A stretch of DNA of 54,015 nt, counting the filler, from Jimgerdemannia flammicorona (lineage: Eukaryota), in NCBI GenBank assembly GCA_003990765.1. It is 3 parts of 3 records of this genome, joined end to end, with 100 filler letters (N's around TTAATTAATTAA, not from the genome) between each part and the next. Parts side by side here need not be neighbours in the genome. Positions count along the whole stretch, not along the records: positions 1 to 17,940 come from RBNJ01002356.1; 2 more parts are not named here. One strand, given 5' to 3'. Positions 879 through 40,193 of the stretch are shown piece after piece. The notes beneath the pieces were generated by a model that saw only the letters and a program-made list of their open reading frames with translations, did not search any database and was not told the origin of the DNA. How positions within the stretch are numbered: position 1 is the stretch's first letter; the number at the start of each line of letters is the position of its first letter. The position numbers and the translations under genes were made by a program.

Positions 879-939
879 TAGTGTTTTGAATAAGTCAATT
901 TGAATCAAATTCAGATTCAATTTATCACATAACAGTTTG

Positions 940-1270
940 ATCTGAATCTCAAATCTGAAGCCATCCAAATCAACTCAGATTAATCTGAATTACCCTATCT
1001 GAATCACCCCATCTGAACCACCCATCCAAATTATTCATCTGAATTACCCTATCTAAACCACCACATCCAAACCACTCAATCTAAATCACTCAATCTAAAT
1101 TACTCAATCCAAATTACTTAATCTGAATTACTCAATCCAAATCACTTCATCCAAATCACTCAATCCAAATTCTCCAATTCAAATCCTCCAATTCAAATCC
1201 TCCAATTCGAATTCTTCAATCTAAATCCTCATCTGAATCCTTCAACCAAATTCTCCAATCTGAATCCTCT
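940..1270. repeat. Left subterminal short-repeat array of outer hAT
   Basis: Tandem degenerate AATC(C/T)(G/A)AATC units, homologous to 1490-1780. Confidence 0.8.
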
Positions 1271-1489
1271 ATATAACTCATATGCTGGATGTATCTATAT
1301 ACACAATACATATATATATAAACATATATATGTATATGCAAACATGCAAACACACATATTGACAGATCAGTCTTCAATAGTTCACAGTACTGATATGTTT
1401 CAAGTCAAACATCCCTGATAGTTCCATATAGTGCTCTGAACGAGTCAATTCAAATCAAATCTGGATTCGATTTGTCACATAACAGTTTG

Positions 1490-1780
1490 ATCCAAATCTC
1501 AAATCCGAAGCCATCTGAATCAACTCAGATTAATCCGAATTGCCCCATCTGAATTGCCCCATCTGAATTGCCCCATCCAAATCACCCATCCAAACTACCC
1601 CAATCTGAATCACTCAATCCAAATCACTGAATCTGAATTACTCAATCTGAATCACTCAATCTGAATCACTCAATCCAAATCCTCCAATTCAAATCCTCCA
1701 ATTCGAATCCTCCAATTTGAAGCCTCCAATCTGAATCCTCATCTGAATCCTTCAACTGAATCCTTCAATCCAAATCCTCC
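1490..1780. repeat. Left subterminal short-repeat array of inner hAT (probable transposase-binding motifs)
   Basis: Repeated CTCAATC(C/T)(G/A)AATCA and CCTCCAATTCGAAT units of ~13-14 bp just inside the TIR, as is typical of hAT ends. Confidence 0.8.
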
Positions 1781-1791
1781 ACATGACTCAT

Positions 1792-4456
1792 ATGCCGGAT
1801 ATGTCCATAACATATTACACACACATGCATATACAATACATACACATGCACACACATATACATGTAAACACACAAACACATATGTTGACAGATCAGTCTT
1901 CAATAGTTCACAGTACTGATGATGCTTCAAGTCAAATATCCCTGATAGTTCCACACCTTCCACACAATCTTCACTCCAAAATCTGGCAACATTGTGCTAA
2001 GATAGGAGATGATGTTATTTGTAATTATTGCAGGTAAAAAATTAAGATGCACCTATTGACTTATTTGACACACACATGATATTGTTTCATCTACCCCCAT
2101 AAACTGTACCAGCCAGAAGTTCAAAATGCTTAGTGGTACAACCTCGAACATGAATCAACACATAAAAGACAAGCACTCTGACAAAATCAAAAAGAATATG
2201 GAGACAAATAAAATCGACATCCAAGCTGTGGTGGGTATGTTTATCTGATTGCCCAACTATTTCTATACCAACAATGCCATTTAATCAAAAATATTTAGCC
2301 ATACTCTTCAGCAGAATTTCGAAATCGGCTCATTCACTGGATTGTGTGCACAGACCAGCTATTCACAACCATCGAGAGTGATCAATTACATAGTATCTTT
2401 GGTCTCCTCAAGCATGATTTATATTTGCCAAGTACTGATACTATTCATAAAGATGTCCTGGAGGCCTATAGGAAGGAGCACAACAATCTTCGCCAGATAT
2501 TTCAGGTAAAATAAGGACAGCACTGTGACCTTTGCAAGCTGAATTATATAAAAGAGCTCACCAATTTAACCTTACATTTAATAAGCAGAATTCAGCAGGC
2601 AAAATTTCATTTACGATCAATACATGGACATCCCCCAATGCAATTTCATTTCTGGGCATTACCAGTCATTGGATTGACCTCGATTAGTAGCTTAAATCTC
2701 TCATCCTTGACTTCATCAAACTTGCTGGCCCTCATTCTGGAGACAATATCGCAGATACTTTTATTAGTTATATTTGAGAGCTTGGGATCACAACCAAGGT
2801 AAAAAAAGGGGGGCTTGCCATCAGGTCAGCATTTTGAGGGAGGTCCTTAAACAGAACAGATTTTGTTGGTTATTTATTTTCACATAATTTGCCAACTGAA
2901 TATTTCAAGTACAGATTTTGGCTATTATGACAGACAATGCCACAAATAACTCAACATTTTTCCAAGCTTTAGCAGTCAGCCTCAAACAGGAAAACATGGC
3001 CTTCGGTGCAGAAAGCTGCTGTGTATGATGTTAGGCCCATGTACTGAACCTCACTATTCAGGACTATCTTATGCATGTAGACAAAACATCCAAGAGAGGA
3101 GGGGCCCTGAGTATAATTTCCAAGCTACGCAAACTGGTTGTGTCAGTCCAATCATCCCTACAATGATGAGACAAATTCGCTGTGCAGTGTAGGGCAATCA
3201 TTTTGGCCCCAAAAGAGCTTATATTAGATGTCTGTATGCATTGGAACTCAACATTTACAATGATCCAGCATGTGCTGGAGTTTGCTGTAGTATGTATCTT
3301 TTTTTTCTTCAGTTAGCTGAAGCAACTGTTTCGGATGATGGAAGATTTATTTTAAAAAATTAAAAAAAAAAAAAAGCCAATAGATTCAATGATGGCTGCC
3401 AACAAGGAAATACAGGCCGAGGCTCTAAGTGAAAGTGAGTGGGACGTACTTAGGAATGTTATCAGAGTTTTGAAAGTAAGTGGTGGTTGCTCTGGCTCCA
3501 CACTCATTTTGTCTACCTTCACATAATGCAACACCTCACTACATATAACTGCTAGTGTTTCGATGATTGTATGAAGGATATAGTCAAAAAAATGATCCCA
3601 ACAATAAGCTCTGCGATATCAGTATACAACCTTCTGATTGACTGGCTAGAGGACAAGCTCAAGGACAGGCTGGAGGGTTGCAGTGATTTATAGTTAAGCT
3701 CAGATCAGAGAGACACCATGGAGGTTGCTCTAAGCAAGCTCAAGAAATACTACTCTCAAACAGATACTGCCATATACTCAATCAGTACAGATATGTCAAT
3801 GTCAGCATATGGCTATTGTCTCTTCCAAAACAGAGGAAACCCCGCAAAAACTCACTCTCCTTTTCTTCAAACAGTGCTGGACCCATGCTTAAAGCTATAA
3901 TACTATAAAGATCAGGGCTGAGAGCAGCACTTCATTGAGAGAACCAAGCAGGCCATAATCGAAGTGTACTGGAAAAACTACACACTGCCACAAGGTTCCA
4001 GCTGAAGTCTGGACAAATATGCCAAGGGTTCCCTCCTGTCCCACATTTACTTCAGCAGAAAGAGGAAGAGGGAGCCATCAGTGGAAGAGCTGCTGTCAAT
4101 AGACAAACTCACCATTTACCTCACCAGCGACCATGTGATCCTGCTGGAGGGCACGGAGGTGCTCAACTGGTAGAAGGTGGATTGTTAGGTAGGCATTGTC
4201 AGGTGGGTATTGGGCCAATTTAACCCACCAATCTAACCACCACTCTACCCACCAGAGTATGCAGCTGCATCAAACAGACTTCCCCAGCCTGTGTGGTATG
4301 GCTCAAGACTACCTGGCAATTCCTGTCTCTAGTGCTCCTGTTGAGTGGGTGTTCTCAGGTAGGGTGGATCTCGTTACCCCAAAGAGGTGTGTGCTGAATG
4401 CTGAGACAATTCGGGCATGTATGTGTCTGAAGTCTTGGTGGGGCTCAGGCCACTAA
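1792..4456 (+). pseudogene. hAT-family transposase, multi-intron, inactivated
   Basis: BED finger KIWQH..DVICNYC...GTTSNMNQHIKDKH. Catalytic-core motifs KISFTI(N)TWTSPN..FLGITSHWID, ILAIMTDNATNN and C*AHVLNL. C-terminal dimerisation domain FPSLCGMAQDYLAIPVSSAPVEWVFS...RCVLNAETIRACMCLKSW (ORF 4196-4456). Several in-frame stops. The start codon is approximate. Confidence 0.93.
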
Positions 4457-4569
4457 AATTCAGTGGGTCCGCAGATAAGTTGGTTGGCCTTGTGGAATAT
4501 TTAATACCTTTCAAATTAATACCTTTCAAAATAATAAAAAAGGAAAAAAAAACCTGAGGACTCAGCCCA

Positions 4570-5050
4570 GAGTTTGCAGCCCAAGTGGGGTGGAGTTGGT
4601 GGCAGTGGCAGAGAGAGTACACAATATTTGTGGCCCTCAGCCAGCAGCAAGGGGCAGCCCCAAGCTGCCAGTGCCCAGGTTGGTGGGTGGGTCAGTGGGT
4701 CAGCAGAGGGAGTATGCAAAATTTGTAGCTCTCTGCCAGTAGCAAGGGGCAGCCCCAAGCTGCAAGTGTCCAGGTCAGGGGGGTAGGTAGAGGGAGCATA
4801 CAAAATTTGTGGCCCTCTGCCAGCAGCAAGGGGCAGCCCTAAGCTATCAGTGCCCAGATCAGTGGGTGAGGTCAGTTGGCAGGTTGGTGGGCATGGAGTT
4901 GGCAGAGAGAGCATGCAAAATTTGCGGCCCTCTACCAGCAGCAAGGGGCAGCCCCAAGCTGCAAGTGTCCAGGACAGATGGGGCAGGTGGAGAGAGTGTA
5001 CAAAATTTGTAGCCCTCCACCAGCGGCATAGGGGCAGCCCCAAGCCACCA
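4570..5050. repeat. Internal array of ~5 units with a conserved ~60-bp core and variable G-rich spacers
   Basis: Core approximates GCAGAGAGAGCATGCAAAATTTGTGGCCCTCTGCCAGCAGCAAGGGGCAGCCCCAAGCTGC and recurs near 4607, 4702, 4787, 4901 and 4988. Confidence 0.85.
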
Positions 5051-5326
5051 AGGAGTCTGGGGCAGAGGGTGCTTCTGGCAGTCAGAGGGCGTTTCTGGTG
5101 GTCGAAGTTGCCAGTTTGGGTCCCACAGGCACTCTGGCCCTGTGCTACAGCACCGTACCAGTGGCACTACAGAGCAGAGCCAAGGGGCTGGTAGGGCCCT
5201 GCATAATGGCTAAGCTAGTGCTACATAAGAGGCATCTGGCCCATATAAGACTGCCCAACCTACACAAAATGGCTGCCTAATCCATACAAAATGGCTGCCT
5301 AACCCTCACAAAAGATTGCCTAACCC

Positions 5327-7549
5327 TCACAAAAACTGCTCCACCTACCAGTCCCAGGCCTTGATGAGTCTATCATCCATTGTGAGTGCGATAACTGTTG
5401 TATCTGAGCTCTCCTCGAAGGCGACAGTGCTATGGTGATCATGTGGTTGGAATAGAACAGCCTTGTTGGCTGCAAATGGGACCCCGAAACCATAGGTGAG
5501 GTTGTACCAGACTCCACCACTGTCCTCTCAGGTTGGGCCCTTCCTTTCTGGGACATAAAACATTACTGAGGTGACATTGTTGTCTGTGTATATGGGTAGA
5601 GAAAGGTTGTACCTGATGTATCCTGATGTGACGTGAGCATACAGTTGGGTGAACCCTTGGCCCAGGACTTCATACTGCTAGGTTGTGCTGGTGGACACCT
5701 GCCCTTGGTCCAGCCCCGGGAGCTCCAGCTTGGAAATCTGCCGAAATGGACAGCAACCGGTCAGTCCTTTTTACATGCAGGGGGGCAGAAACCCCCCAGG
5801 CTGCAGCACTCCAAAAAGCGGAGCTCCTCACCTCATATGGTACACTAAATTGCACCAAGAATGTATGTATAGCTACGCTGAGATCACCACCAAGCTGGCC
5901 TGCCATATGCTCTACCAATTTGCTCAAAGAACCCCAGATCATAGCCACCATCACCGCACAGGCCATGTTGTGCTCACATGCAGTTTGCTCTTCAACAGCA
6001 CTTCTAAAGTTCCAGTAGGAGTACAGAATCTTGTGCATCCCTGGAATTGTATCAAAAAGAGTATGTCAGTAAAGAGTGTGATTTATCTGGAGAGGAGTTA
6101 AAAAAAAAGAGAGATGAGTGTGGGAGATTTTGGAACTCTGGAACCCACCCTTCGCCAGTATTGCAGTATACCCAATTCCTGTCCAAACTCCCCCTCCTTG
6201 CTTTTTTTGCCCCCTCTTTTCTGCCACCCAGTATTTGATGCAATCCTTGCAAATCTCATTGATGTAGTGGTGAAGCTCATCGCCATAGAGGTTCCTTACC
6301 ACCATCACAACCACCTCTCTGCATTTGTTAATAAAGATATGGTTCTCTTCATCATTGGTTACTCCTGCTGGCCAATGGACCCCTTGGTCAAGTATGATTA
6401 GCTCCAATTCAAATGTAGACCCCCAAGCCTTAATGACAATGCTGGTACTGCTCATGCTAAACATCTTGCCCTCGAATTTCTCTATTTGATCAGATGCTGG
6501 ACATGGTTGAACTTGGGTAACTTTGAACTCTCCTTTCCAATGGAACTGAGCCCTGATCTGAGGGACCGAGATAAGTATGTAGATGGGTTGCATGCAAATG
6601 GATTGTGTGTAGGCAGGTTGCATGTAGGCGGGTTGCATGCAGACAGGTTGCATGCGGGCAGGTTGTGGGCAGGTTGCATGCAGGCAGGTTGCATGCAGGC
6701 AGGTTATATGTGGGCAGGTTGCATATGGGTGGGTTGCATGCAGGCGGGTTGCATGCAGGTGGGTTGTGTGTGGGTGGGTTGCATGTGGGTGGGTTGTATG
6801 CAGGTATAGGTGTTTTTTAGAGGGAGACTACATAAAAATGAAATTAAATAAAACATGGAGATGGGTATTTCAGAAAAAGAGTATGAGTGAGTGAGTGAGT
6901 GAGCTGCATGCTGACAAGTTGCATACTGATGAGTTGTATGCTGACAAGTTATATGAGTTGCACAAGATTGCTCACGAAGGCTTGCTTCTGTTCCTTTTGA
7001 GACCTCCACCATGCAATGTATTGACTCAACAGCTCAGCCACCAAAGGCATGCCCCACAATGTCTGCCAGCCTTTCTTCATTTTGATCAGATATTGCAAAT
7101 AAAGTTGGCAGATCTCGCCATAGAGCTGTGGACCCTAAGAAAAGCATGAGGTGAATTGAGTTGTGCTGGAGAAGTTTAAATAAACACAAGTAAACAAGTG
7201 GCAGCTGAGTGAGCAACCTACATCTACTATCAGCTGCTCCAAAAAGGCTGCCACATATAGCTGTGAGGTCTGTGAATTCCAAGGTCTGAAGGGCCACTAT
7301 GAGTTGTTGCCAGAATTCTCCCTCATTCTCACCATTGCCATTGCCATCACTACTGCCACCACCACTGCCATTGTCCCTTTGGCTCTCGATGAGCAGCTTG
7401 TGTGCTGTCCATATGAGAAAGAATCTAACATGGTCAGCAGAGAGTGCATTTCCACCTCAAATACTCCCTCTTTTGATGATCATTGCAGGGTGAAAAATGA
7501 GTAGACTGGACCAATGTACAAATTAAGGGCTGCTGTTTTGTTTGCTCAT
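5327..7549 (-). pseudogene. hAT cargo gene, spliced; C-terminal exon resembles a TET/JBP-type 2OG-Fe(II) dioxygenase
   Basis: ATG at 7549 (MSKQNSSP..), with exon-like blocks separated by repeat or poly-pyrimidine introns. The last exon follows a CTGAC...CAG acceptor at 5738 and reads ISKLELPGLDQGQVSTSTT*QYEVLGQGFTQLYAHVTSGYIRYNLSLPIYTDNNVTSVMFYVPERKGPT*EDSGGVWYNLTYGFGVPFAANKAVLFQPHDHHSTVAFEESSDTTVIALTMDDRLIKAWDW*. The true stop is uncertain (5345 or 5327). Family call is by motif recognition only. Confidence 0.6.
6575..6810. repeat. 15-bp tandem repeat inside an intron of the cargo gene
   Basis: Units resemble GGGTTGCATGCGGGC / AGGTTGCATGCAGGC. A shorter homologous array lies at ~12740-12875. 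Confidence 0.85.
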
Positions 7550-7713
7550 GATGCGGCAGGAAAGAACAAAGAAAAAGAACAAAGAAAAAGAACAAAAAAA
7601 AGAACAAAAGAAGAGAGGGAGCAAAAGGAAAGGGTGATGTCACTAAAGTGTGGCAGGAAAAAAAAATCAAGAGCAAAATAAACAAAAGAAAGGGTGATGT
7701 CACTAAAGATTTC

Positions 7714-7860
7714 AATCCAGATGGATCAATCCAGATGGACCAATCCGGATGGACCAATCTGGATAGACCAATCTGGATGGACCAATCTGGATGGACCAAT
7801 CTGGATCAATCCAGATGGATCAATCTGGATGGATCAATCTGGATCAATCCAGATCAGATC
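7714..7860. repeat. Right subterminal repeat array of inner hAT
   Basis: Tandem CAATC(C/T)(G/A)GATGGAC 14-bp units. The array is much shorter in the outer copy (~13775-13830). Confidence 0.85.
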
Positions 7861-7957
7861 ATGAGACCAATTCGAGTTGATTTGAATCTATCACATGATG
7901 AATCTGAATTGAATCTCATCCAGATCAACTCCATCCATTTGGAGCACTAGTTCCACA

Positions 7958-10460
7958 TCTTCTATGCAATTCTTGCTCTGAAATCTGGCAATATTGTACT
8001 AAGACAGGAGATGATATTATTTGTAACTATTACAGATAAAAAATTAAAATGCACTTATTGATATAACTGATACTTTTGTTTGATATACACATGATACTAT
8101 TTCATCCATCTTTATAAACTACATCAGCCAGAAGTTCAAAATGCTTGGTGGTATGACTTTGAATATACATATATTGACATATAAAAGACAAGTACTCTGA
8201 CAAAAATCAAAAAGAATACAGAGATAAATAAAATCGACATCCAAGCTATAGTGGGTACATTTATCCAAATTGCCTAACTATTTCTATACCAACAATCCCA
8301 TTTAATCAAAAATATTTAGCCACACTCTTTGGCAGAATTTTGAAATCAGCTCATTCACTAGATTATATATACAGACCAACCATTTACAACCATTAAGAGT
8401 GATTAATTACATAGCATCTTTGGCCTCCTCAAGCATGATTTATATTTGCTAAGTACTGATACTATTCGCAAAGATATCCTGGAGGCCTATAGAAAGGAGT
8501 ATGATAATCTCTACCAGATACTTCAGGTAAAATAAGGGCAGCACCATGACCTTTGCAAGCTGAATTATATATATTTTTTTATAAAGAGCTCACCAATTTA
8601 ACCTTATATTCAATAAGCAGAATTCAGTAGGCAAAATTTCATTTAGATTGATACATGGATATCCCCCAATGTAATTTCATTTCTGAGCATTACCAGTCAT
8701 TGAATTGACCTCAATTAGTAGCTTAAATCTCTCACCCTTGACTTTGTCAAACTTGCTGGTCCTCATTCTGGAGACAACATCACAGATGCTTTTATTAGTT
8801 GTATCCAGAAGCTTGGGGTCACAACTAAGGTAAAAAAGAAGGGCTTGCTATCAGATTGGTATTTTGAGAAAGGTCCTAAAACAAAACAGATTTTATTGGT
8901 TATTTATTTTCACATAAATTTGCCAACTGAATATTTCAAGTATAGATTTTGGTCATTATGATGGATAATGCTACAAACAACTCAACATTTTTCTAAGTTT
9001 TAGCAGCTAGCCTCACATAGGAAATTGTGGTCTTCAGTACAGAAAGCTGCTATATACAATATCAGACCCATATACTGAACCTCACTGTTTAGAACTATCT
9101 TATATATATAGACAAAGCATCCAAGAGAGGAGGGGCCCTGAGTATAATTTCCAAGCTATGCAAACTGGTTGTGTCAGTCTGATCATTTCTATAATGACAA
9201 GACAAATTTGCTACACAGTGTAGAGCAATCAGTTTAGCCCCAATTGGATGTCTGAATATGTTAGAACTCAATATTTGCAATGATCTAGTATGCACTAGAG
9301 TTTGCTGTAGTATGTATTCTTTTTTTCTTCAGTCAGCTAAAGCAACTTATTTTGGATGATTGAAGATTTTTTTTTTTTAAAAAAAAAATAACAAAAAAAG
9401 CCAATAGATTCAACAGTAGTTGCTGACAAGGAAATACAGAACAAGGCTCTAGGTGAAAGTGAGTGGGACATACTTAGGAATGTTGTCAGAGTTTTGGAAT
9501 TAAGTAGTAATTGCTCTGACTCAAAACTTGTTTTGTCTACCTCCACACAATATAATATCTTATCACATATAACTGCCAGTGTTTTGATAATTATATGAAG
9601 GATATAGTCAAACAAATGACTCTGATAATAAGCTCTGTAATACTAGTATATAACCTTCTGATTGACCAGCTAGAGGACAAGCTCAAGGACAGACTAGAGG
9701 GTTATGGTAATTTATAGTTAAGCCTGGATCAGAGAGATGCCATAGAGGTTGCTCTATGCAAGCTTAGAAAATACTACTTCAAAACAGATACTGCTATATA
9801 CTCAATTAGTATAGATATGTCAGCATGTGGCTGTTGCTCCTTCCAAAACAGAGAAATCCCTACAAAAACTCACTCTCTTTTCTCTAAACAGTGCTGGACC
9901 TATGCTTAAAGCTACAATATCATAAAGATCAGAACTGAGAGCAGTACTTTATTGAGAGAACCAAGCAGGCCATAATTGAAGTATACTGGAAAAACTATAT
10001 ACTACCACAAAGTTCCAGCCAAAGTCCAGACAAATATGCTGAGGGATTCCTCCTATCCTATATTTACTTCAGCAGAAAGAAGAAGAGAGAGCTATTAGTA
10101 GAAGAGCTGCTATTAATAAATGAACTTACTATTTACCTCACCAGTGACTGTATAATCCTGCTGGAGGGTGCAGATGTGCTCAACTGGTAGAAGGTAGGTT
10201 GTCAGATAGATATTGGACCAATTTAACCCATCAATCTAACCACTACTCTTACTTACTAGAGCATGCAGCTATATCAAATGGACTTCCCCAGCCTATATAG
10301 TATGGCTCAAAACTATCTGGCAATTCTTGCCTCCAATGCTTCTGTTGAGCAGGTGTTCTCAGGTGGGGTAGACCTTATTGCCCCAAAGAGGTGTATGCTG
10401 AATACTGAGACAATTCAGATATATATATGTCTAAAGTCTTGGTGGGGCTTAGGTCACTAA
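7958..10460 (+). pseudogene. hAT transposase of the outer copy (its 5' piece is at 1282-1428)
   Basis: Colinear with 1956-4456. Includes the dimerisation-domain ORF 10263-10460, FPSLYSMAQNYLAILASNASVEQVFSGGVDLIAPKRCMLNTETIQIYICLKSW. Confidence 0.9.
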
Positions 10461-10569
10461 AATTTGATGAGTACTGAGGGTTTGCAGATAAGTTGGTTGG
10501 CCTTGTGGAATATTTAATACCTTTCAAAAATAAAAGGAAAAAAAACCTAAGGACTTGATCTAGAGTTTG

Positions 10570-11135
10570 CAGCCCAAGTGAGATAGTAGTCAGCAGAGTT
10601 GGTAGTGGTGGCAGAGGGAGTATACAAAATTTATAACCCTCCACTAGCAGCAAGAGGCAGCCCCAAGCTATCAGTGCCTAGGTTGGTAGGCAGGTCAGTG
10701 GGTGGGTCAGTGGGCAGATCAGTAGGCAGATCAGTGGGCATAGAGTTGATAGAGGGAGCATGCAAAATTTGTGGCCCTTTGCTGGCAGCAAGAGGCAGCC
10801 CCAAGCTGCAAGTGTCCAGGACAGAGTATTGGTGGGGGGGGGTAGGTGGAAGGAGTATGCAAAATTTGTGGCCCTCCACTAGTAGCAAGAGGTAGCCCCA
10901 AGCTATCAGTGTCCAGGTCAGTGAGCAGGGTTGGTTGGCAGAGTTGGTTGGTAGGGTTGGTTGACAGGGTCAGTAGGTGTGGGGTCAGCAGAGAGAGTAT
11001 GCAAAATTTGCAGCTCTCCACTGACAGCAAGAGGCAGCTCCAAGCTATAAGTATCTGAGATAGGTGAGATAGGTAGAGAGAGTATGCAAAATTTGCAATC
11101 CTCTACCAGCAACATAGGGGCAGCCCCAAGCCATC
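10570..11135. repeat. Internal ~60-bp-core repeat array of outer hAT
   Basis: Same CAAAATTTG...GGCAGCCCCAAGCT core as 4570-5050, about 5 units, with different spacer lengths. Confidence 0.85.
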
Positions 11136-11475
11136 AAGGAGTCTGAGTTCAGGTTAGAGGGTACTTCTAGTGGTTGAAGAGTACTTCTGGCAATCAGAGG
11201 GCATTTCCAGCAGTCAAAGGGTACTTCTGATGGTTGGAGTCTACTACAGATTCAGGTCTTGTAGGCACCCTGGCCCTGCATCACAGCATTACACCAGTGG
11301 CACTGTAGAGTAGAGCCAAGAGGCTGATAGGGCCCAGCATAATGGCTAAACTAGTACTATAGAAGAGGCACCCAGCTGTCAGCCCAATCTGTACAAAATG
11401 ACTGCTGAACTCTCACAAAAGACTGTTTAACCCTTACAAAAGATTGCCTAACCCTCATGATAGATTGCCTAACTC

Positions 11476-13627
11476 TCACAAAAACTGCTCCACCCATTAG
11501 TCCCAGGCCTTGATAAGCCTATTATCCATTATAAGTGTGATGACTATTGTATCTAAGCTCTTCTTGAAGGCAATGGTGTTATGGTGGTCATGTGATTGAA
11601 ATAGAATGACCATGTTGACTACAAACAGGACTCCAAAACTGTAGGTGAGGTCATACCAAACTCTACCACTATCCTCTCAGATTAGACCCTTCCTTTCTGG
11701 GACATAGAATATTACTGGGGTGATATTATTATCTATATATATAGATAGAGAAATATTGCACCCAATGTATCCTAATGTGACATGAGTATATAGTTGAGTG
11801 AACCCTTGGCCCAGGACCTCATACTGCCAGGCTGTACTGGTGGATATCTGCTCTTGGTCCAGCCCTGGGAGCTCCGGCTTAGAAACCTGCCAAAATAGAT
11901 AGTAACTGGTCAGTCCTTTTTGCATATGGGAGAGCAGAAACCCCCTAGGCTGCAGAAACCCCCTGGGCTGCAGTACCCAAATAAAGCAGAGCTCCTTACC
12001 TCATATAGCATGCTAAATTGCACCAAGAATATACATATACCATACTGAGATCACCACCAAGCTGGTCTGCCATATTCTCTATCAATCTGCTCAAAGAACT
12101 CCAGATCATAGCTACCATTGCTGTACAGACTATGTTGTACTTATATGCAGTTTGCTCTTCAATGGTACTTCTAAAGTTCCAGTAGGGGTATAAAATCTTG
12201 TACATTTCTGGAATTATATCAAAAAGAGTATGTTAGCAAAAAGTGTGATTTATCTGAGAAGGAGTAAAAAAAAGAGAAATGAGTGTAGGGGATTTCAAAA
12301 CTCTGGAACCCACTCTTTGTTAGTATTGCAGTATACCCAATTCCTATCCAAACCCCCCCTTCTTGCTTTTTTTGCTCTCTCTTTTCTACTACCTAGTATT
12401 TGATATAATCCTCATAAATCTTGTTGATATGGCAGTGAAGCTCATTACTGTATAGATTCCTTACCACTATTACAACTATCTCTCTATATTCATTAATAAT
12501 GATATGGTTCTCTTCATCATTAGTTACTTCTGCTGACCAATGGACTCTTGGTTGAGAACAATTGACTCTGATTCAAATATAGACCCCCAAGCCTTGATGA
12601 TAATACTGGTACTGCTCATGCTGAACATCTTGCTCTCAAATTTCTCTATTTGATCAGATGCTAAATTTGGTTGAACTTGGATAACTTTGAACTCTCCTTT
12701 TCAATAGAACTGAGCCCTGATCTGAGGGACTAAGATAAGTATGTAGACAGGTTGTATGTGGATAGATTATATGTGGATAGGTTGTATGCAGACAGATTGC
12801 ATGCAGATAGATTATATGTGGATGGGTTGTATATAGGTGGGTTGCATACAGATAGGTTTGCATGCAGGTGTGGGTGTTTTTAGGAAGAGATTATGTAAAA
12901 AATGAAGTTAAATAAAACACAGAGATGGATATTTTAGAAAAAGAGTATGAGTAAGTGAGTGAGTAAGTTGTATGCTGACAAGTTACACATCAATGAGTTG
13001 CATGAGTTGCATGAGTTGTATAAGATTGCTCATAAAGACTTACTTCTGTTTCTTTTGAGATCTCTGTCATGTGATATATTGACTCAATAGCTTAGCCACC
13101 AAAGGTATACTCTGCAATGTCCACCAGTCTTTCTTTATCTTAACCAGATGTTACAAATAAAGTTGGCAGATCTCACTATAGAGCTGTGGACCCTAAGAAA
13201 AGCATAAGGTAAATTGAGTCATGCTGGGGAAATTTAAATAAATATAAGTAAATAAGTAGTAGCTGAGTGAGCAACCTATATCTACTATTAGCTGCTCCAA
13301 AAAGGCTACTGCATACATAGTTATAAGGTCTGTGAATTCTGAGGTTCAAAGGGCTACCATGAGTTATTGCTGGAATTCTCCCTCATCTCTGCCATTACTA
13401 CTGCCATTGCTACTACCATCACTATCACTACTACTATTGCCACTGCTGTCACCTCTTTGGCTCTCGATGAGCAGCTTGTGTGCTTTCTATATGAGAAAAA
13501 ATCTAACATTATTAGCAGAGAGTGCATTTCCACCTTGAATACTCTCTCTTTTGATGATTATTACAGGGTAAAAAATAAGTAGACTGGACCAACATATGAA
13601 TTAAGAGCTGTTGTTTTGTTTGCTCAT
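11476..13627 (-). pseudogene. Cargo gene (TET/JBP-like) of the outer hAT copy
   Basis: Colinear with 5327-7549. ORF 11677-11925 reads VSKPELPGLDQEQISTSTAWQYEVLGQGFTQLYTHVTLGYIGCNISLSIYIDNNITPVIFYVPERKG and continues as *EDSGRVWYDLTYSFGV..VILFQSHDHHNTIAF. Confidence 0.58.
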
Positions 13628-14467
13628 GATGTGACAGGAAAGAACAAAGAAAAAGAACAAAGAAAAGAACAAAAGAAGAGAGGGAACAAAAGGAAAGAGT
13701 GATATCATCAAAGTGTGGCAAGAAAAAAAAACAAAAGCAAAATGAATAAAAGAAAGGGTAATGTCACCAAAGATTTCAATCCAGATGGATCAATCCAGAT
13801 CAATCTGGATTAGATCACAAGATCAATCCAAGTTGATTTGAATCCATCACATGATGAATCTGAATTAAATCTCATCTGAATCAACTCCATCCATTTGGAG
13901 TACTAATTAGCCTCAACCTCATAGAGATAAGATACAAAGAAGTAGCCAGTAATGAGAAAATAGTGAATAGTATTGATATCAGCAGTGGTAGAAGGAATCT
14001 CATCAGCCTGGAAGCTACAGAAGGGGGTAGTATCAATAAGGTGAGAGATAGTAAGAACTATATAAAGATAGTGTAATCTTAATAGATTGGAGAAAGGTAG
14101 TGGTGGTAATATCATATATAGCATTAGCAGTAGCAGTCTTGGCAGCAATGGAAGCCATACAGACCTCCTCAGAGAAGGCTTGATAATAGTCCCCAGAGAG
14201 GATAGAAAACTTAATAGTAGGTAAAACCACAGTATCAACATTATATCAAAGATAAACCTCCTTGATAGAGAGAGCCAGAACTGAGCAGAACTGAGTAAGG
14301 AGAGAATAACCTAATAAGCAAAGATTGAGAGAGAGAGAAAGGAGATATAAGATACATAAGCATTGAAGGATATATTAGCTGGGGTGAAGCAGAAGGAAGA
14401 GGAAGGAGAAAAAGCAATATCTTCTATAGCTATATTAGCAGTAAGAGTCCCAGAGGCAGAAGCAATA

Positions 14468-15331
14468 GCAGTAGTAGGAGAGAGTATAATGGAAGTTAGA
14501 GAAGAACTGAAAGGACCAGTGAGAGGGCCAAAGTCTGAGCTATAGTCAAAGAATAAGAAGACAGAGAGAAGATGAGATATATATAAAAAAGATAAGAAAT
14601 AATAATAGATAAAGAACAGAGCAGAAATTGTATCTATTATTTATTGTAATACAAAAGTATAGTTTTTATATATAAATATAAAGTCCTAAAAAGGAACAAT
14701 ATACTATAATATAAAAATAACCAGATTAGGAATCATATATTATATAAAGATAAGAAGAGAGTTAATTCCAGAGTAAGTATAAAAATCAGAAACAAATAAA
14801 TCTAAATCAAGATTAAAAAACATCTATAGACTTTAGAAGAGTGAGTGTAAGTGAGGAGTGAGGTCAAGCAGAGCAAGCTATAGTAAGCCTGAGGTAAAGT
14901 CAAGAGGCTGAAGATAGTAGAGGAGAGTGAAGTAAAGACTGAGACTCTGGAGTAAGTGTGAGATCTCAGAGGGGGCTAGAATGTTTTTTAATATCAATTT
15001 GGATTTATTTATTTCTGATTTTTATACTTACTCTGGGATTGACTCTCCTCTTATCTTTGTATAATATATGATTCCTAATTCAGTTATCTCTATATTGTAA
15101 TATATTGTTCCTTTTGAGACTTTGTATCTATATATAAAAACTGTGCTTTTATATAGCAATAAACAATAGATGCAATTTCTATCCTATTCTTTATTTATTC
15201 TTATTTCTTATCTTCTTTATATCTTACCTTCTCTCTATCTCCTTCTTCTTTAACTATGGCTCAGGCTTTGGCTCTCTCACCAGTCCTTCTGGTTCTCTCC
15301 TAACTCCCATTATATCTCCTTCTACTACTGC
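14468..15331. repeat. Long degenerate inverted repeat (arms ~14468-14823 and ~14981-15331)
   Basis: For example, CCAGAGTAAGTATAAAAATCAGAAACAAATAAATC pairs with GATTTATTTATTTCTGATTTTTATACTTACTCTGG. GTGAGAGGGCCAAAGTCTGAGCTATAGT pairs with ACTATGGCTCAGGCTTTGGCTCTCTCAC. Confidence 0.8.
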
Positions 15332-17940
15332 TCTCCACTCAAGTATCTCACAGCTCTTACTCAGTTAGTAAGGAGAAATTGAGATACTAATGTTCAGATC
15401 TATCTCTACTCTCTCCAAACTGACCACTCTCCAGTAATCTCTAATAGTCAGACTATAGACACCACTCTATCTCTAGTCTTATCTAAATATCTATCTCCTA
15501 GCAGTCAGCTGTTAGCATCTAGTCAATCCTTATTTAATATCTATTTATCCAATAGATATAGACCCACTGATCCTTCTATAATACTCTACTAGTATCTATA
15601 AAAAAGTCTAGTCTCTCTATCTCCTATACTGCCAGAATACTACTATAGCTACTAGTATCTCTCTCTTTATTGGTCCTATCTAATATTATATTCTAAATCA
15701 TATTAAAGTCTCCTCTAAGCACATCTACTCTAGCTTTAGCCAAAACTCTGCAATTCAAAAGTCTCTTCAATTACTCAATCTACTTATCTTATACTATCAG
15801 GTAATAGTAAGAGTTAATAATAATAGACTCTCACTCTGATCTATATCACTTCTCTCATACCAATCAGTCACTCTAGCTCTCAACTTTACAAAGATTGCCT
15901 TTATCACTCTATACTAGTATTCTAATTTTATTCCTCTAAGCTACTACTCTGTCTTATTCTCTAGTCCAATTCTGCTCATCTAAGTCCTTCTTCTAACATA
16001 CATTCTATAAAAGAAAAAGATCAGCCTCTAATCTCTTTAGCTAAGAAAAAATATTTCACCTTATAGAGCTTCTCAAATTATTCACTTTTAGTGAGAAAAT
16101 ATTAATTATACTATTTATAAGAATAAAATATTATAAAATATAACCAACTTCTCATAACTCTATACTCATCTCCTTATATATTAAGTTTAGGTCATATTTA
16201 GTTACAACCACTGCCTCTGCAGCCTCTCTTATCTCCAGACTCACTAAAATCTCAGCAATTACCTCATTTTCCTTCTCTTCCATCTCCTCTTTATACTCTA
16301 TATAAACTTCCTACCAGTACTGCAAACTATATCTTTGCTTAAACCAGAATACTGCTCTCTTCTCTACCAATACTACCAACTCAGTCTCCTGTACCTCATC
16401 AATCTCATACTCCTCCTTCTTGAGTAGGACTGCTAGAACTTTCATCTTCAGTTTTTCTATCAGTCTATCTCTCCTCAGTATACATACTCATTACTCCTTG
16501 TTGATCACTCATAAGTTTACTTTCTTCAACTCCTCAGTAGTCAATTTATTTATTATCTTAATCATCTACATCAAGTCTCTAATTTGTTTTCTCATAGGAG
16601 TCTCTAGCCTCTCTTCTCTCAATATCATTACATTAATATCTATACTTACTATTTCATTCTATTTCTTCTCAAACATATTATATAGCTCACTTTCAGTAAT
16701 ATCAACTACCTATATCTTCTTTACTATATCAGAAACTCTAAACTAAACTCTCAGCAAGTCCTTTATCTCTATATCTATCTTGTTCTCTACAATCTGTACA
16801 CTAGCTTTTATTTCTAATTTCTCCTTCTTCTCTCAGACTTCCAGCACTCTCTCATCATATAGTCTTGTAGCCCTATTTTCTTTACTCTCTACCATACCCC
16901 CTAGCTTTACCCCAGCTCTTACTTTAGTTTAAAAGCTTATTATCATCTTACTAGTATCTTCTCTATCTCTAATTATAGATCTATTCTTCATTGCTATCAA
17001 TAACTCCTACTGCTACTTCCAACTCTAAGTCTTCTTTTACAATATCTTATCTATCCTTCACTGTTTTCTATTTATGATCTCTAAATATATTAATGTTTTA
17101 TATACTCTTCATATAATTGCCCTCAGCTCTACTACTCCACTTAGCTCCTCTAGAGTCTCTAGCAAATTCTCCTCCTCCTTTATACTCTCTTTTACCTTCA
17201 TTATCTTATATATAAAAGCTCTCTATATTATTACAGAGGGCCAGTCCCAGGCCTTCTCAGTAGTCTTCTTCTCAGTAAGTTAAAGTCAGATATCTATATC
17301 TCTAGTTCTGAATATAGTTCTCTCTTAGACCTAGAATCCAATATCCACTACTTCACTATACTCTATTATCATCTTCTCTACTTTTCTTCTTGTCTCTACT
17401 ACTGTCTCTATAGACACCCCTTTCACTAGAAGTTGAACCACTCTTAGATCTCATCTCAAGTATTATACTATTAATACTATTATCTTTCCAATTATCAGCC
17501 CAGTCTTCAAAGTCTTCTCTAGTAGTCCCACTTTCTCAAACCTCACCTCAACTCTCTTCAGCTCTCTTAAGAACTTCACTAATATTGCTCTAGTCATTTG
17601 TTTTAAGATAAGTCTTAGAACTATCTTAATAGTCACTATTAGTCTCTAAAAGTAAAATATAATAGTAAATTTTAAGATTGATTTCTTAAGTAACAGTACT
17701 ATTACTAAGTCTATTATATCATTTATGAGGTTCTCTTTCCTTTCTCAGCCCACTAGTCTAGCCCCACTATCAGCTATCATATCTGTATTTTTTTCTAAAT
17801 TTTTAGTTATATTACTATCAGTAGTCTTCTCTTCTTCTCTAGTCACTATTTCTTTAGCTTTTTTTTTTATCAAAAAAGTCTATTCTCAGACTATATCTTC
17901 TTCTAACATACTGCTATCTGCAGACCTCAGGTCTGTTTTT
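15332..17940 (-). mobile_element. Extremely decayed repeat; part may be a non-LTR retrotransposon ORF1
   Basis: Essentially no CpG, TpA excess and strong purine/pyrimidine strand skew. Minus-strand remnant VVQLLVKGVSIETVV...EYSEVVDIGF..FRTRD near 17300-17450 is only suggestive of LINE ORF1. Confidence 0.3.
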
Positions 17941-18040
17941 NNNNNNNNNNNNNNNNNNNNNNNNNNNNNNNNNNNNNNNNNNNNTTAATTAATTAANNNN
18001 NNNNNNNNNNNNNNNNNNNNNNNNNNNNNNNNNNNNNNNN
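17941..18040. other. Artificial contig linker / assembly gap
   Basis: N-run containing TTAATTAATTAA (17986-17997), which has stops in all six frames. Confidence 0.97.
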
Positions 18041-18083
18041 AAAAAAAAAAAAGAGGGGGGGATAAAGAAATCCATCCACTCAC

Positions 18084-19575
18084 TCATCTCAACCTCGACG
18101 TGATAAACACCGGATGGCATATCGACGCGATCTTGTCTTCCCCATAGCTTCCTAAAATTCGGCAGGCCCGATGTACGCATCCAGACCATGAAGTGCTCGT
18201 TTCGGTTTAGTTCCGGCAGGCCAAAGGCCGGGTCGGCGGAGGAGTAATTACCGCCGGGGTAGCGCAAGGCCCAGTTGGGCGGTGGGCGGACGTCTGCGAT
18301 GCCGTACGCCGTCCGACCGTATTTGGCCCGATCTGTCGGCCAGGCGATCCCTGTCGAACTGAAGACGTACGTCGAATTCACGAAGCCACCTGGGGAGACG
18401 ATTGTGAAGTCCGAGATCGTGTCTGGTGGACGTGGGAAGGGAGGGGGTTTTACCGAGTATGAAGAAGATAGGTGGAAGGTGTCAAATTTACGTCAATAGG
18501 GGTGTGATTTATAACATATATCCGTCCACGGCGACCCCACTCACACACACACGGGCAAAAAATAAAAATAAAAAATAAAAGCGTACCATTAAAGATAGAA
18601 TTCGCAATCAACCCGCACGGATAATACGGCACGCTGTCATTGCTCCCCAAGGGCGCGCATGATGTGTCGAGTGTCCCGGCACCGACGGCCTCGCCCTTGA
18701 GCTGGCTGGCGTCGAAGCTCTTCACGTAGCGCCTGTGATTCTGGAAGAAGTTTGTGAGCCTGTAGTAAAGGAAAACGGGTGCCTTGAGGGGTTGCGGAAG
18801 GAAAAACTCGATAGCGCAGCGCGTAATGCTGATGTTGTTGGGATTGGGGCCTGTGAGGAAGGTCGGGGTCGCGAAGGACATAAAGCGCGGGTTGATATCG
18901 CTGTAGGTGGAAAAGGAGGAGGAGAATGACGAGATGGGAACGGGATTCATGTTGGGGTAGTTGCCGCAGTTGCTGTAATCGATGATGATTTCGTTAACCT
19001 GGGTTCGGAGTTGGGAGGTGAAGGACAAGGTGAAGGTGAGGGTATTTTAAAGTGAGCTCGTTGTGAGGTACCAGAAAATGCGGCAATGCGGTCTTTCTTC
19101 CTTTCCACAATCCGCGTCCGCCAATCTATCCAGCGTTCTCAAATCCACATATATTTATCCTCCTCGAGCAATAGTCCACACTATTCAAATAGAGTTTTGT
19201 CATACTTCCAAATACTTCCAAATCCTCCTCTCGCTAACTCCTGTATGACTTTGGGGTTTCGGCTCTTCCGCGGTCGTCCATCAAGCACACAACCTGCCCT
19301 GCCTGCCAAAAAGCTTACCATATTGCTAGCATACAGCAGCAGGCCTCCGATGGGCGCGAAAATTAGCCCAACAATGAAGAAGGTCGGCAGCACGGTCCTT
19401 GGGGTCAAGATGGGCTGCCATGCCGGTAACCGTTGCTGCTTGAACGGGGTGTCTGCGGATTAGGCGCATGAGTGAGCAAGGAAGAGGTGGCATGCGATCC
19501 TTGAAAGACGCTGAAGCGCCGATCCGAGTACGTACTTGTGGGTTTCCGGCTCTTGAGTTCACTTTGTTGTGACAT
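18084..19575 (-). CDS. CDC50: CDC50/LEM3 family P4-ATPase flippase beta subunit (3' end lost at the contig edge)
   Basis: GT-AG exons 19575-19536, 19452-19319, 18998-18587 and 18422-18084. Motifs [65 protein letters not shown] and [19 protein letters not shown]. Confidence 0.96.
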
Positions 19576-31975: not shown

Positions 31976-32022
<47 letters not shown>

Positions 32023-40191: not shown

Positions 40192-40193
40192 AG

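What the first reader, a model, noticed from the sequence alone, without database searches (positions are those of the whole stretch)
5327..7549. hAT transposon family carrying a TET/JBP-like dioxygenase cargo gene
Seen: both hAT copies contain, inside the TIRs and convergent with the transposase, a second spliced gene (other copy 11476-13627), so it is a stable part of the element. Its last exon has a hydrophobic strand, then (Y)TD at 5590-5582, then GG-aromatic...FGV.F....AVLF, then HDHH(S/N)T with the His 50 codons after the Asp. Known: this layout resembles the HxD...GG...LLF..H..HSN double-stranded beta-helix core of TET/JBP 2OG-Fe(II) dioxygenases, which oxidise 5mC or thymine. In fungi these genes are described mainly alongside KDZ (Kyakuja-Dileera-Zisupton) and Plavaka transposons; I am not aware of them as hAT cargo. 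Inference: in a genome whose repeats lose CpG, the element may have encoded its own methylation-modifying, anti-silencing enzyme.
Basis: partly seen in the sequence, partly recalled or inferred. Interest (0 to 1): 0.85.

Follow-up and report, generated by a model that had tools for sequence, protein, structure and literature searches.

The report
hAT transposon carrying decayed TET-like gene
Two nested, mutation-riddled copies of a hAT transposon in an Endogone-like soil fungus each carry a broken gene that most likely once encoded a TET-like DNA-demethylating enzyme, a kind of transposon cargo already described in rusts, mushrooms and truffles.

Summary
Window 1429-7949 is a full hAT element: 14-bp inverted ends, an 8-bp target duplication and a hAT dimerisation domain. 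It is inserted inside a second copy (879-1428 plus 7950-13905). Both copies carry a four-exon gene convergent with the transposase.

The gene is real. Metagenome homologues (P0001-P0003, P0010, L001) are open and share three intron positions. They have H-x-D, then GG, then H-G-S/T 48-50 residues on. The window's YTD is a His-to-Tyr decay.

Pfam, PHROGs, PDB sequence searches and my two AlphaFold models gave nothing usable. Support for a 2OG-Fe(II)/TET-like fold comes from three sources:
- ESM Atlas neighbours (Tet-like PF20515 cluster; 2OG-oxygenase structure neighbours at TM 0.54-0.63).
- The conserved metal triad.
- A by-eye match along the whole length to the 'PE-type' and 'PU-type' transposon TET proteins of Kojima 2025.

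That paper already describes TET genes as hAT cargo in Puccinia, so the kind is known. What differs here:
- The host is a Mucoromycotina fungus (chitin synthase 92% identical to Endogone).
- The hAT is canonical, with an 8-bp duplication.
- The TET-like family is divergent and absent from Pfam.

Both window copies are dead. Transposon CpG is depleted (0.02-0.18 against 1.05 in genes).

The parts
1429..7949 (+). hAT copy 1, full length, inserted into copy 2
   Evidence: TIRs found by pattern search; flanks read; self-BLAST
1429..1442 (+). 5' terminal inverted repeat TAGTGCTCTGAACG, followed by 14-bp subterminal repeats (1533-1779)
7936..7949 (-). 3' terminal inverted repeat (TAGTGCTCCAAATG on the minus strand; 11 of 14 match the 5' TIR, all three differences transitions), preceded by 14-bp subterminal repeats 7712-7854
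1421..1428 (.). left target-site duplication GTTCCATA
   Evidence: the uninterrupted site in copy 1 reads GATAGTTCCACACC
7950..7957 (.). right target-site duplication GTTCCACA (7 of 8 identical to the left one; the difference is a transition)
1979..4456 (+). hAT transposase pseudogene, several short exons. In-frame stops lie inside conserved blocks, e.g. HWIDLD**...ISYI*
   Evidence: ORFs; translation; Dimer_Tnp_hAT on 4193-4453 E 4.9e-14
4608..4876 (.). 95-bp tandem repeats between the two converging genes (similar repeats extend to about 5045; 22-bp repeats at 5251-5334)
5327..7080 (-). Cargo gene, TET-like 2OG-Fe(II) dioxygenase pseudogene. Exons: 7080 or 7050 to 6975, 6557-6147, 6040-5832, 5737-5327
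   Evidence: intron positions shared with L001
5582..5590 (-). Y-T-D, the decayed H-x-D metal-binding motif (TAT where relatives have His)
   Evidence: relatives
5432..5434 (-). codon of the distal His (H-G/S-S/T motif), 50 codons after the Asp
5528..5530 (-). Premature TGA, shared with copy 2. All other metagenome contigs laid here read TGG (Trp), as does P0001
5678..5680 (-). Premature TAG. Copy 2 and P0001 have Trp here
5345..5347 (-). Premature TAG six codons before the inferred natural stop at 5329-5327. P0001 has Trp here
6558..6974 (-). long first intron holding a 15-bp minisatellite (6585-6804)
879..1428 (+). hAT copy 2, 5' part (TIR TAGTGTTTTGAATA and subterminal repeats), split off by the insertion of copy 1
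7950..13905 (+). hAT copy 2, remainder: transposase remnant, repeats and cargo gene (about 11476-13111, minus strand, 5 premature stops besides the stop near the gene's end, two 1-bp deletions). 3' TIR at 13892-13905. No target duplication recognisable

Best explanation
The stretch is the second gene of a canonical hAT DNA transposon (8-bp target duplication) in a Mucoromycotina fungus close to Endogone.

In its intact form the gene encodes a protein of about 370 residues. Its C-terminal half is a double-stranded beta-helix Fe(II)/2-oxoglutarate dioxygenase: H-x-D, GG, then H-G-S/T 48-50 residues later, and a downstream Arg. Its overall layout matches the transposon-borne TET/JBP-like dioxygenases described by Kojima in 2025, nearest by eye to his 'PE type' but with H-x-D instead of H-x-E.

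Inferred mechanism. The element makes its own cytosine-methyl oxidase. This removes or alters the 5mC that the host places on repeats. It thereby keeps the transposase transcribed and slows 5mC-to-T decay.

Shown:
- The element anatomy.
- The gene, its homologues and the conserved triad.
- CpG loss restricted to repeats.
- Transition-only decay.

Inferred:
- The fold, which rests on ESM Atlas models and not on my own.
- The substrate.
- The anti-silencing role.

Both copies in this window are dead. The cargo gene has premature stops and has lost the first iron ligand. The transposase is broken too.
For: Element:
- TIRs, 8-bp TSD and nesting.
- hAT dimerisation domain E 4.9e-14.
- Subterminal 14-bp repeats.

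Gene reality:
- 9 phmmer hits among 1.84 billion representatives, 5 of them true relatives (P0001 E 5.7e-55, P0002 2.6e-26, P0003 1.3e-09, P0005, P0008).
- P0010.
- Metagenome loci L001 and L002 hold an open multi-exon gene matching P0003 residues 28-367.
- Three shared intron positions and phases.

Catalytic motif: H-x-D in 14 of the 18 family sequences in which the motif region was found, H-x-N in 4. Asp-to-His spacing is 48-50.

Fold and family leads:
- The ESM Atlas holds P0001 (82% identical to the window's last exon) with its own model (pLDDT 0.69).
- Of its 10 listed structure neighbours, 8 are 2OG-Fe(II) oxygenase clusters at TM 0.54-0.63: a cluster with Tet_JBP in 28% of members, one named prolyl 4-hydroxylase with no Pfam family listed, PF13640, PF13759 and PHD.
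- By features, rank 3 is a 'Tet-like 2OG-Fe(II) oxygenase' cluster (PF20515 in 72% of members, score 0.91, 178 of 256).
- For P0003 the top cluster has PF20515 in 15% of members, score 0.96.

Literature: Kojima 2025 (PMC12730594) shows TET/JBP genes inside 11 lineages of fungal DNA transposons, hAT included. Its PE type is likewise invisible to ordinary profile searches (HHpred E 1.4).

By-eye match to sequences printed from its Table S1:
- N(H/Y)IF.D....E(I/V)V..V.RN
- GG.(V/M)W..IG(Y/W)
- LP.(L/M)D
- GG.F(Y/F)...YG(I/F).(V/I)....N...V.(F/W).....HG(T/S)(T/S)
- G(L/M)S......RL

Host pressure:
- CpG obs/exp is 0.18 and 0.02 in the copies against 1.05-1.06 in the genic stretches.
- There are 878 transitions against 50 transversions between the copies.
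- C-to-T affects 59% of CpG and 38% of CpA sites.

Other copies: in a soil metagenome run, 788 contig pieces lay on 5300-7960. All 27 contigs covering 5528 read TGG where the window has TGA.
Against: No formal homology test was passed:
- Pfam gave no Tet_JBP, PF20515 or any 2OG family at E<=1 for the window exons or for P0001, P0002, P0003, P0005, P0008, P0010 and the L001 exons.
- PHROGs gave nothing relevant.
- PDB sequence and profile searches gave 0 hits at E<=10.
- Both AlphaFold2 models were poor (mean pLDDT 36.8 and 38.5).
Its weak rows include cupins, HppE, HEPD and PHD2 but no TET.

Other weaknesses:
- ESM Atlas neighbours are leads without E-values. The structural neighbours include prolyl hydroxylase-type families as well as Tet_JBP.
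- The putative 2OG-binding Arg is not invariant: Leu in the L001 group.
- The match to PE and PU types is by eye only.
- Both window copies are pseudogenes, and the His-to-Tyr change and the TGA are shared by both. The last transposing ancestor may therefore already have lacked an active enzyme.
- No activity or expression data exist.
Confidence: 0.6

Rival explanations
1. The cargo is a 2OG-Fe(II) dioxygenase of another clade (prolyl/lysyl-hydroxylase-like or AlkB-like). It would act on a protein, on RNA or on alkylated or 6mA bases, not on 5mC.
For: Several structural neighbours of the Atlas model of P0001 are 2OG-FeII_Oxy_3 / Oxy_5 / PHD clusters or carry a prolyl 4-hydroxylase name, with TM as high as the Tet_JBP-containing cluster. 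No Tet_JBP or PF20515 Pfam hit. Early-diverging fungi are rich in 6mA, and CcTET also oxidises 6mA (passages of PMC13297926; section 3.4 of PMC12730594).
Against: The feature search ranks Tet-like PF20515 clusters first among named families. The N-terminal half also resembles the transposon TET proteins by eye. The context, cargo of a DNA transposon in CpG-depleted repeats, is that of the known TET-bearing transposons.
Confidence: 0.2
2. The gene is an accessory transposon protein with a jelly-roll fold but no oxygenase activity (for example DNA binding or transposition control). The H-x-D ... H pattern would be a relic.
For: Both window copies lack the first His. 4 of 18 family sequences have H-x-N. 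The Arg is not invariant.
Against: The H-to-Y and D-to-N changes are the C-to-T / G-to-A transitions that dominate decay here. They sit in sequences with other damage. The open, divergent members (P0001, P0002, P0003, P0010, L001) all keep H-x-D and the distal His at fixed spacing.
Confidence: 0.1
3. It is a host gene picked up by chance (transduplication). It would be of no use to the element and would simply decay.
For: Both copies are pseudogenes. In the related locus L001 the gene lies in a different arrangement (followed by another gene, then the terminus).
Against: It is present in both copies, which differ by about 16-20%. Metagenome contigs cover the whole gene many times (788 pieces). 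L001, only 38-40% identical in protein over the last exon, also ends in a terminus matching this hAT's 5' end: 22-nt motif, 0 of 200 shuffles, and 65-68% identity over 109-121 nt. No copy outside the two elements was found in the window.
Confidence: 0.1

Closest known systems
TET-bearing hAT7 transposons of Puccinia (Kojima 2025, Biology 14:1741, PMC12730594)
   Same: A hAT-superfamily DNA transposon carries a TET/JBP-like dioxygenase gene as a second gene inside its TIRs, in a fungus whose repeats undergo C-to-T hypermutation.
   Different: hAT7 makes 7-bp duplications and ends in CAACGGTGGG / CAGCGATGGG (Table S1). Here the duplication is 8 bp and the ends are TAGTGCTC. The hAT7 cargo is the PU type. 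In three of the hAT7 families it lies upstream of the transposase in the same orientation. Here the gene is downstream and convergent, and the protein looks nearer to the PE type. The host is Pucciniales there against Mucoromycotina here.
PE-type TET/JBP-like dioxygenases of Pezizomycetes and Agaricales transposons (same paper)
   Same: Very divergent from classical TET/JBP and missed by ordinary profile searches. By eye they share the same order of blocks along the whole protein, including GG.FF..(Y)G(I)R(I)...N..V.W....HGT(S/T) and G(M)S.V...RL.
   Different: The PE hallmark is H-x-E; this family has H-x-D. [quoted passage not shown] I made no computed alignment, because the paper's sequences are not stored session sequences and so could not be entered.
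KDZ (Kyakuja-Dileera-Zisupton) / Plavaka-associated TET/JBP genes and CcTET of Coprinopsis
   Same: Fungal transposon-linked Fe(II)/2OG dioxygenases thought to counter methylation. CcTET oxidises 5mC and 6mA.
   Different: Those proteins are recognised by Pfam Tet_JBP / PF20515 (recalled). The present family is not. The transposase superfamily differs.
VANDAL (MuDR) anti-silencing protein VANC of Arabidopsis
   Same: A DNA transposon that encodes its own factor against epigenetic silencing (named in the introduction of PMC12730594).
   Different: An unrelated protein that acts by sequence-specific binding, not as a dioxygenase (recalled).

Membership tests
hAT superfamily of DNA transposons | C-terminal hAT dimerisation domain in the transposase | tested here: met
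   PF05699 on window 4193-4453(+), E 4.9e-14, 52.3 bits against a cut-off of 21.4
hAT superfamily of DNA transposons | 8-bp target-site duplication and short TIRs | tested here: met
   GTTCCATA / GTTCCACA flank copy 1. The 14-bp TIRs match at 11 of 14 positions. Copy 2 shows no duplication.
hAT7 TET-bearing families (Kojima 2025) | 7-bp target-site duplication | tested here: not met
   8 bp
hAT7 TET-bearing families (Kojima 2025) | termini like CAACGGTGGG / CAGCGATGGG; host Puccinia | tested here: not met
   Termini are TAGTGCTC... against Table S1. The host chitin synthase is 92% identical to Endogone sp..
2OG-Fe(II) dioxygenase superfamily (DSBH) | H-x-D/E ... H facial triad | tested here: met
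   Met in intact relatives: 14 of 18 sequences with the motif have H-x-D, and the distal His is 48-50 residues after the Asp. In the window itself it is not met: Y-T-D in copy 1, Y-I-D in copy 2.
2OG-Fe(II) dioxygenase superfamily (DSBH) | double-stranded beta-helix fold | tested here: inconclusive
   My AlphaFold2 models reached pLDDT 36.8 and 38.5, and Foldseek gave no hit at E<=0.001. The ESM Atlas's own model of P0001 (pLDDT 0.69) has 2OG-oxygenase clusters as 8 of 10 listed neighbours, TM 0.54-0.63.
2OG-Fe(II) dioxygenase superfamily (DSBH) | basic residue binding the 2OG C5 carboxylate after the distal His | tested here: inconclusive
   Arg about 21 residues after the His in P0001, P0002, P0003, P0010 and the window. 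Leu in the L001/P0005 group.
TET/JBP family | match to Pfam Tet_JBP (PF12851) or fungal 2OG-FeII_Oxy_6 (PF20515) | tested here: not met
   No hit at E<=1 for any member or window exon. Only ESM Atlas look-alike clusters carry these families.
TET/JBP family | structure closer to TET/JBP enzymes (NgTET, CMD1, CcTET, TET2) than to other 2OG oxygenases | tested here: inconclusive
   No confident model of my own. No TET chain among the weak Foldseek rows.
TET/JBP family | oxidation of 5mC or thymine in DNA | not testable with these tools
   needs biochemistry
PE-type transposon TET/JBP-like proteins (Kojima 2025) | H-x-E in place of H-x-D | tested here: not met
   H-x-D throughout; the hallmark is stated in section 3.4
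PE-type transposon TET/JBP-like proteins (Kojima 2025) | sequence similarity along the domain | tested here: inconclusive
   Block-by-block resemblance by eye to Table S1 sequences. No computed alignment.

The most novel reading that the evidence does not exclude
This is a fourth type of transposon-borne TET/JBP-like dioxygenase: PE-like scaffold, H-x-D triad, unknown to Pfam. It would be native to canonical hAT elements of early-diverging fungi (Endogonales and other soil Mucoromycota). That would mean the contest between cytosine methylation or hypermutation of repeats and transposon-encoded demethylases is not confined to Dikarya. The PE type of truffles and mushrooms might then stem from such elements by horizontal transposon transfer.
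Probability: 0.4. Interest if true: 0.7.

Novelty: new variant of a known kind. Interest (0 to 1): 0.5.

Why it matters
Transposon-encoded TET/JBP dioxygenases are the clearest candidates for a mobile element that carries its own eraser of DNA methylation.

In the papers I could search, they are reported only from Pucciniomycetes, Agaricomycetes and Pezizomycetes. That is the range given by Kojima 2025 and by passages of a June 2026 review (PMC13297926). A search for JBP together with five Mucoromycota terms, asking for at least two of the six (1,196 papers, 25 listed), showed JBP in one listed paper only. There it stands in the reference list alone.

A member in an Endogone-like Mucoromycotina fungus would extend the phenomenon to early-diverging fungi, which are usually discussed for 6mA and not 5mC. 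The same window gives matching evidence. Repeats, but not genes, have lost nearly all CpG by transitions, so cytosine methylation or a RIP-like process targets repeats in this lineage.

It also shows that a whole TET-like family escapes Pfam-based annotation.

Tried and rejected
Searches and models that gave nothing usable:
- Pfam on single exons and on all relatives at E<=1: nothing relevant.
- PHROGs at E<=5: nothing relevant.
- PDB by sequence and by profile at E<=10: 0 hits.
- AlphaFold2 of P0003 with 6 sequences and of P0001 with 8 sequences: pLDDT 36.8 and 38.5, unusable.
I take the weak cupin and HppE rows as no evidence.
- Word-indexed homologue searches with P0003 and with alignment A1 found only 2 proteins each, fewer than the known members. 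They could not deepen the alignment.
- Alignment A3, with window exons as fragments, misplaced the end of exon 3. I did not use it.

Context that could not be obtained:
- No whole genome is held for the window.
- The genome search by handle was not possible for L001.
- Earlier findings of this scan: three look-ups, nothing.
- Sequencing runs: no RNA holder listed, only soil-metagenome DNA runs with small shares.
- Iyer et al. 2014 is not held. What I say of it is recalled or taken from Kojima 2025.
- The figures of Kojima 2025 (alignment Figure 7, termini Figure 1) and FigS.pdf could not be seen.
Full report
**What is in the sequence**

Self-BLAST of 1301-8000 against the window and two MAFFT alignments show two copies of one element. 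They are 79-80% identical by BLAST, and 84% over 5708 aligned columns.

A pattern search for the terminus found TAGTGCTCTGAACG at 1429-1442 (+). Its inverted mates lie at 7936-7949 (-) and 13892-13905 (-). There were two further 2-mismatch matches that I take as chance: 5 matches in all against 2.16 expected.

Reading the flanks shows that copy 1 (1429-7949) is bounded by GTTCCATA and GTTCCACA. The sequence left of it (879-1428) and right of it (7950-13905) together form copy 2. Copy 1's own homologous site reads GATAGTTCCACACC. So copy 1 inserted into copy 2 with an 8-bp target duplication. The copies are nested, not adjacent. Copy 2 shows no recognisable duplication.

The plus-strand gene (about 1979-4456) is a hAT transposase. 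Dimer_Tnp_hAT matches 4193-4453 at E 4.9e-14. It has in-frame stops inside conserved blocks, for example ...HWIDLD**LKS...ISYI*ELG. Both ends carry 14-bp subterminal repeats.

**The second gene**

On the minus strand, converging on the transposase, lie four exons:
- ATG 7080 or 7050 to 6975
- 6557-6147
- 6040-5832
- 5737-5327

In copy 1 the first three exons are open. The last exon has TAG 5680-5678, TGA 5530-5528 and TAG 5347-5345.

In copy 2 the homologous exons carry 5 premature stops, besides the stop near the gene's end, and two 1-bp deletions.

Y-T-D is 5590-5582, and the conserved His (5434-5432) lies 50 codons after the Asp. I found no support for coding sequence upstream of about 7080.

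**Is it a gene?**

phmmer of the last exon (TGA read as X) against 1.84 billion representatives gave 9 hits at E<=0.001. Five are true relatives:
- P0001: 136 aa, 82% identity, E 5.7e-55
- P0002: E 2.6e-26
- P0003: 374 aa, full length, E 1.3e-09
- P0005
- P0008

The other four are repeat proteins.

All come from metagenome or Logan assemblies, and none carries a name other than 'hypothetical protein'. The P0005 cluster has 28 members.

A metagenome scan found L001 and L002, which are 99% identical to each other. They hold an open multi-exon gene matching P0003 residues 28-367.

Three introns sit at the same codon and phase in the window and in L001:
- after ..KQAF / ..KKEF, phase 0
- inside the Gly codon after GYT..A(K/S), phase 1
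- after ..PYE / ..LYL, phase 0

These are read. tblastn of P0003 covers window exons 3 to 5 (E 8e-25). No further copy lies elsewhere in the window.

**What the protein is**

Open relatives share these blocks:
- P-T-H-x-D-x-(D/N)-x-T-P-V
- (S/G)GG.(F/W)Y(N/D)(L/M).YG(F/V)GV
- N....(F)
- H-G-(S/T)-(T/A/V)

Of the 18 sequences in which the first block was found, 14 have H-x-D and 4 have H-x-N. The Asp-to-His distance is 48-50. The window's Tyr (TAT) for His (CAT), its three stops (TGG to TAG or TGA, judged against P0001) and the Asp-to-Asn changes are all C-to-T or G-to-A transitions.

The pattern is that of the 2-His-1-carboxylate triad of 2OG-Fe(II) dioxygenases (established knowledge). An Arg about 21 residues after the His is present in most members. 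It is Leu in the L001 group.

Formal tests failed or were uninformative:
- No Pfam family at E<=1.
- Nothing in PHROGs.
- No PDB chain at E<=10 by sequence or profile.
- AlphaFold2 with the 6- and 8-sequence alignments gave mean pLDDT 36.8 and 38.5.

Indirect support comes from the ESM Atlas. For P0003 the nearest cluster by features (0.96, 209 of 256) is a Basidiomycota cluster in which 15% of members carry PF20515. A Tet_JBP-containing cluster is at rank 11.

P0001 is held in the Atlas with its own model (pLDDT 0.69). By features, rank 3 is a 'Tet-like 2OG-Fe(II) oxygenase' cluster (PF20515 in 72% of members, 0.91, 178 of 256). By structure, 8 of the 10 listed neighbours are 2OG-Fe(II) oxygenase clusters, TM 0.54-0.63. 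They are a cluster with Tet_JBP in 28% of members, one named prolyl 4-hydroxylase with no Pfam family listed, PF13640, PF13759 and PHD. These are leads without E-values.

**The literature**

Kojima (Biology 2025, 14:1741, PMC12730594) characterised complete DNA transposons that encode a TET/JBP dioxygenase. I read the abstract, sections 1, 2.1, 3 (parts 1-2) and 4 (part 1), and parts of Table S1. He found them in 11 transposon lineages in Pucciniomycotina, Agaricomycotina and Pezizomycotina.

Twenty hAT families of six Puccinia species carry the 'PU type'. They make 7-bp duplications ('hAT7') and, as printed in Table S1, begin CAACGGTGGG or CAGCGATGGG.

[quoted passage not shown] It is so divergent that HHpred gave only E 1.4 to CMD1. 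It was recognised through AlphaFold DB models. Its hallmark is H-x-E.

Compared by eye with the Table S1 sequences printed, the present family follows the same order of blocks along its whole length. It looks nearest to the PE type:
- window NHIFINKCREVVVMVVRN against N-Y-I-F-.-D-....-E-I-V-..-V-.-R-N
- LP.(L/M)D
- GG.F(F/Y)...YG(I/V).(I/V)....N..V.(W/F).....HG(T/S)(T/S)
- G(M/L)S......RL

It also shares GG.(M/V)W..IG(W/Y) with the PU type, and it has H-x-D.

I could not enter the paper's sequences into a tool, so this comparison is not computed. The paper's alignment figure and FigS.pdf were not visible to me.

**The host**

The window also holds ordinary fungal genes:
- CDC50, 17992-19046
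- a macro domain
- chitin synthase, 23776-25925
- an EF-hand
- a rhodanese

A chitin synthase exon is 92% identical to a protein of Endogone sp. FLAS-F59071. It is 85% identical to Umbelopsis and Bifiguratus, about 80% to Mucorales, and 70-77% to Glomeromycotina and the Agaricomycetes listed. The host is therefore a Mucoromycotina fungus in or near Endogonales.

A search for JBP together with five Mucoromycota terms asked for at least two of the six (1,196 papers, 25 listed). JBP appeared in one listed paper only, where it occurs solely in the reference list. My two searches with 'TET JBP' were void for that term, because the slash is not matched. Passages of a June 2026 review (PMC13297926) name transposon-encoded TET/JBP only in Basidiomycota and Pezizomycetes. 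Iyer et al. 2014 is not held.

**The pressure on the element**

Between the copies there are 878 transitions and 50 transversions. Where copy 1 has C, copy 2 has T at these shares of sites:

| Context | Share C-to-T |
|---|---|
| CpG | 59% |
| CpA | 38% |
| CpC | 20% |
| CpT | 8% |

CpG observed/expected differs sharply between repeats and genes:

| Stretch | CpG obs/exp |
|---|---|
| hAT copy 1 | 0.18 |
| hAT copy 2 | 0.02 |
| Ty3-like element, 36000-40300 | 0.14 |
| AT-rich stretch, 14000-17900 | 0.00 |
| Genic stretch, 17900-26000 | 1.06 |
| Genic stretch, 29000-34500 | 1.05 |

Repeats, not genes, lose CpG. This is what repeat-targeted cytosine methylation with deamination, or a RIP-like process, would give (inference).

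**Other copies**

Logan contigs of three soil-metagenome runs of one study were laid on 5300-7960 at 80% or more. Run X1 gave 788 pieces: 113 at 99% or more, 197 at 95-99%, 278 at 90-95% and 200 below 90%. They covered all 30 bins. X2 gave 40 pieces and X3 gave 12.

The differences are mostly window T or A against C or G in the contigs (X1: A>G 90 and T>C 88, against C>T 45 and G>A 57). At 5528 every covering contig (22, 3 and 2) reads C. This turns the window's TGA into TGG (Trp), as in P0001.

The contigs are short (the longest listed piece is 621 letters), so they do not link the gene to termini. X1 may be the sample of origin, so it is not independent support.

L001's 3' end matches the window element's 5' terminus. 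AACGAGTCAA(A/T)TCAAATCAAAT occurs once in L001, and 0 of 200 shuffles reach this. The ends are 65-68% identical over 109-121 nt to both 5' ends. So this distant relative also appears to lie in a related element. There the gene is followed by another gene before the terminus.

**Verdict**

The interpretation as a TET/JBP-like dioxygenase is the best reading. I put the fold at about 0.8 and a TET-like, DNA-directed enzyme at about 0.6. It rests on motifs, Atlas look-alikes, context and a by-eye match to published transposon TET proteins, not on a passed homology or fold test.

The kind is known: a TET gene as cargo of fungal DNA transposons, hAT included. Three things are new:
- the host lineage;
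- the canonical hAT carrier;
- a divergent H-x-D family absent from Pfam.

The two copies here are relics. Both the enzyme gene and the transposase are broken by the very transitions the enzyme is supposed to prevent.

Noticed in passing
window 48941-49648 (minus strand): A decayed, AT-rich homologue of the second gene of metagenome locus L001 (L001 2362-3157, which lies between the TET-like gene and the hAT-like terminus). tblastx gives 46% identity over 67 residues with two in-frame stops, plus a second block of 38% over 48. No Pfam family for the L001 exons. It may be the remnant of a related element with another gene set.
   Followed up: partly
window 14000-17900, 36000-40300, 40300-50100 against 17900-26000 and 29000-34500: CpG observed/expected is 0.00-0.14 in the repeat or AT-rich stretches and 1.05-1.06 in the genic stretches. 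TpA/ApT reaches 1.27 in 14000-17900. This is a repeat-restricted C-to-T hypermutation signature, at CpG and also at CpA, in a Mucoromycotina fungus. RIP-like processes are usually discussed for Dikarya.
   Followed up: partly
window 50157-51599: A long minisatellite that gives a 481-codon open frame of (L/M)P(I/V)LP-like repeats on the minus strand. No Pfam family. Probably not coding.
   Followed up: no
window 36667-37870 (minus strand): Ty3/Gypsy-type retrotransposon remnant (RVT_1 E 4.2e-31, RT_RNaseH_2 E 1.7e-27), CpG-depleted like the hAT copies.
   Followed up: no
window 17992-26000 and 31649-34451: A gene island between the repeats: CDC50/LEM3 (17992-19046, minus), macro domain (20435-21310, plus), class I-III chitin synthase (23776-25925, minus), EF-hand (31649-31966) and rhodanese (33873-34451). 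The chitin synthase exon is 92% identical to Endogone sp. FLAS-F59071.
   Followed up: partly
window 5528-5530 and 5588-5590, with the matching sites of copy 2: The TGA stop and the His-to-Tyr change are shared by both nested copies, although all other metagenome contigs read TGG at the stop. Either the two copies descend from an already disabled parent, or the same CpA hot spots were hit twice.
   Followed up: partly
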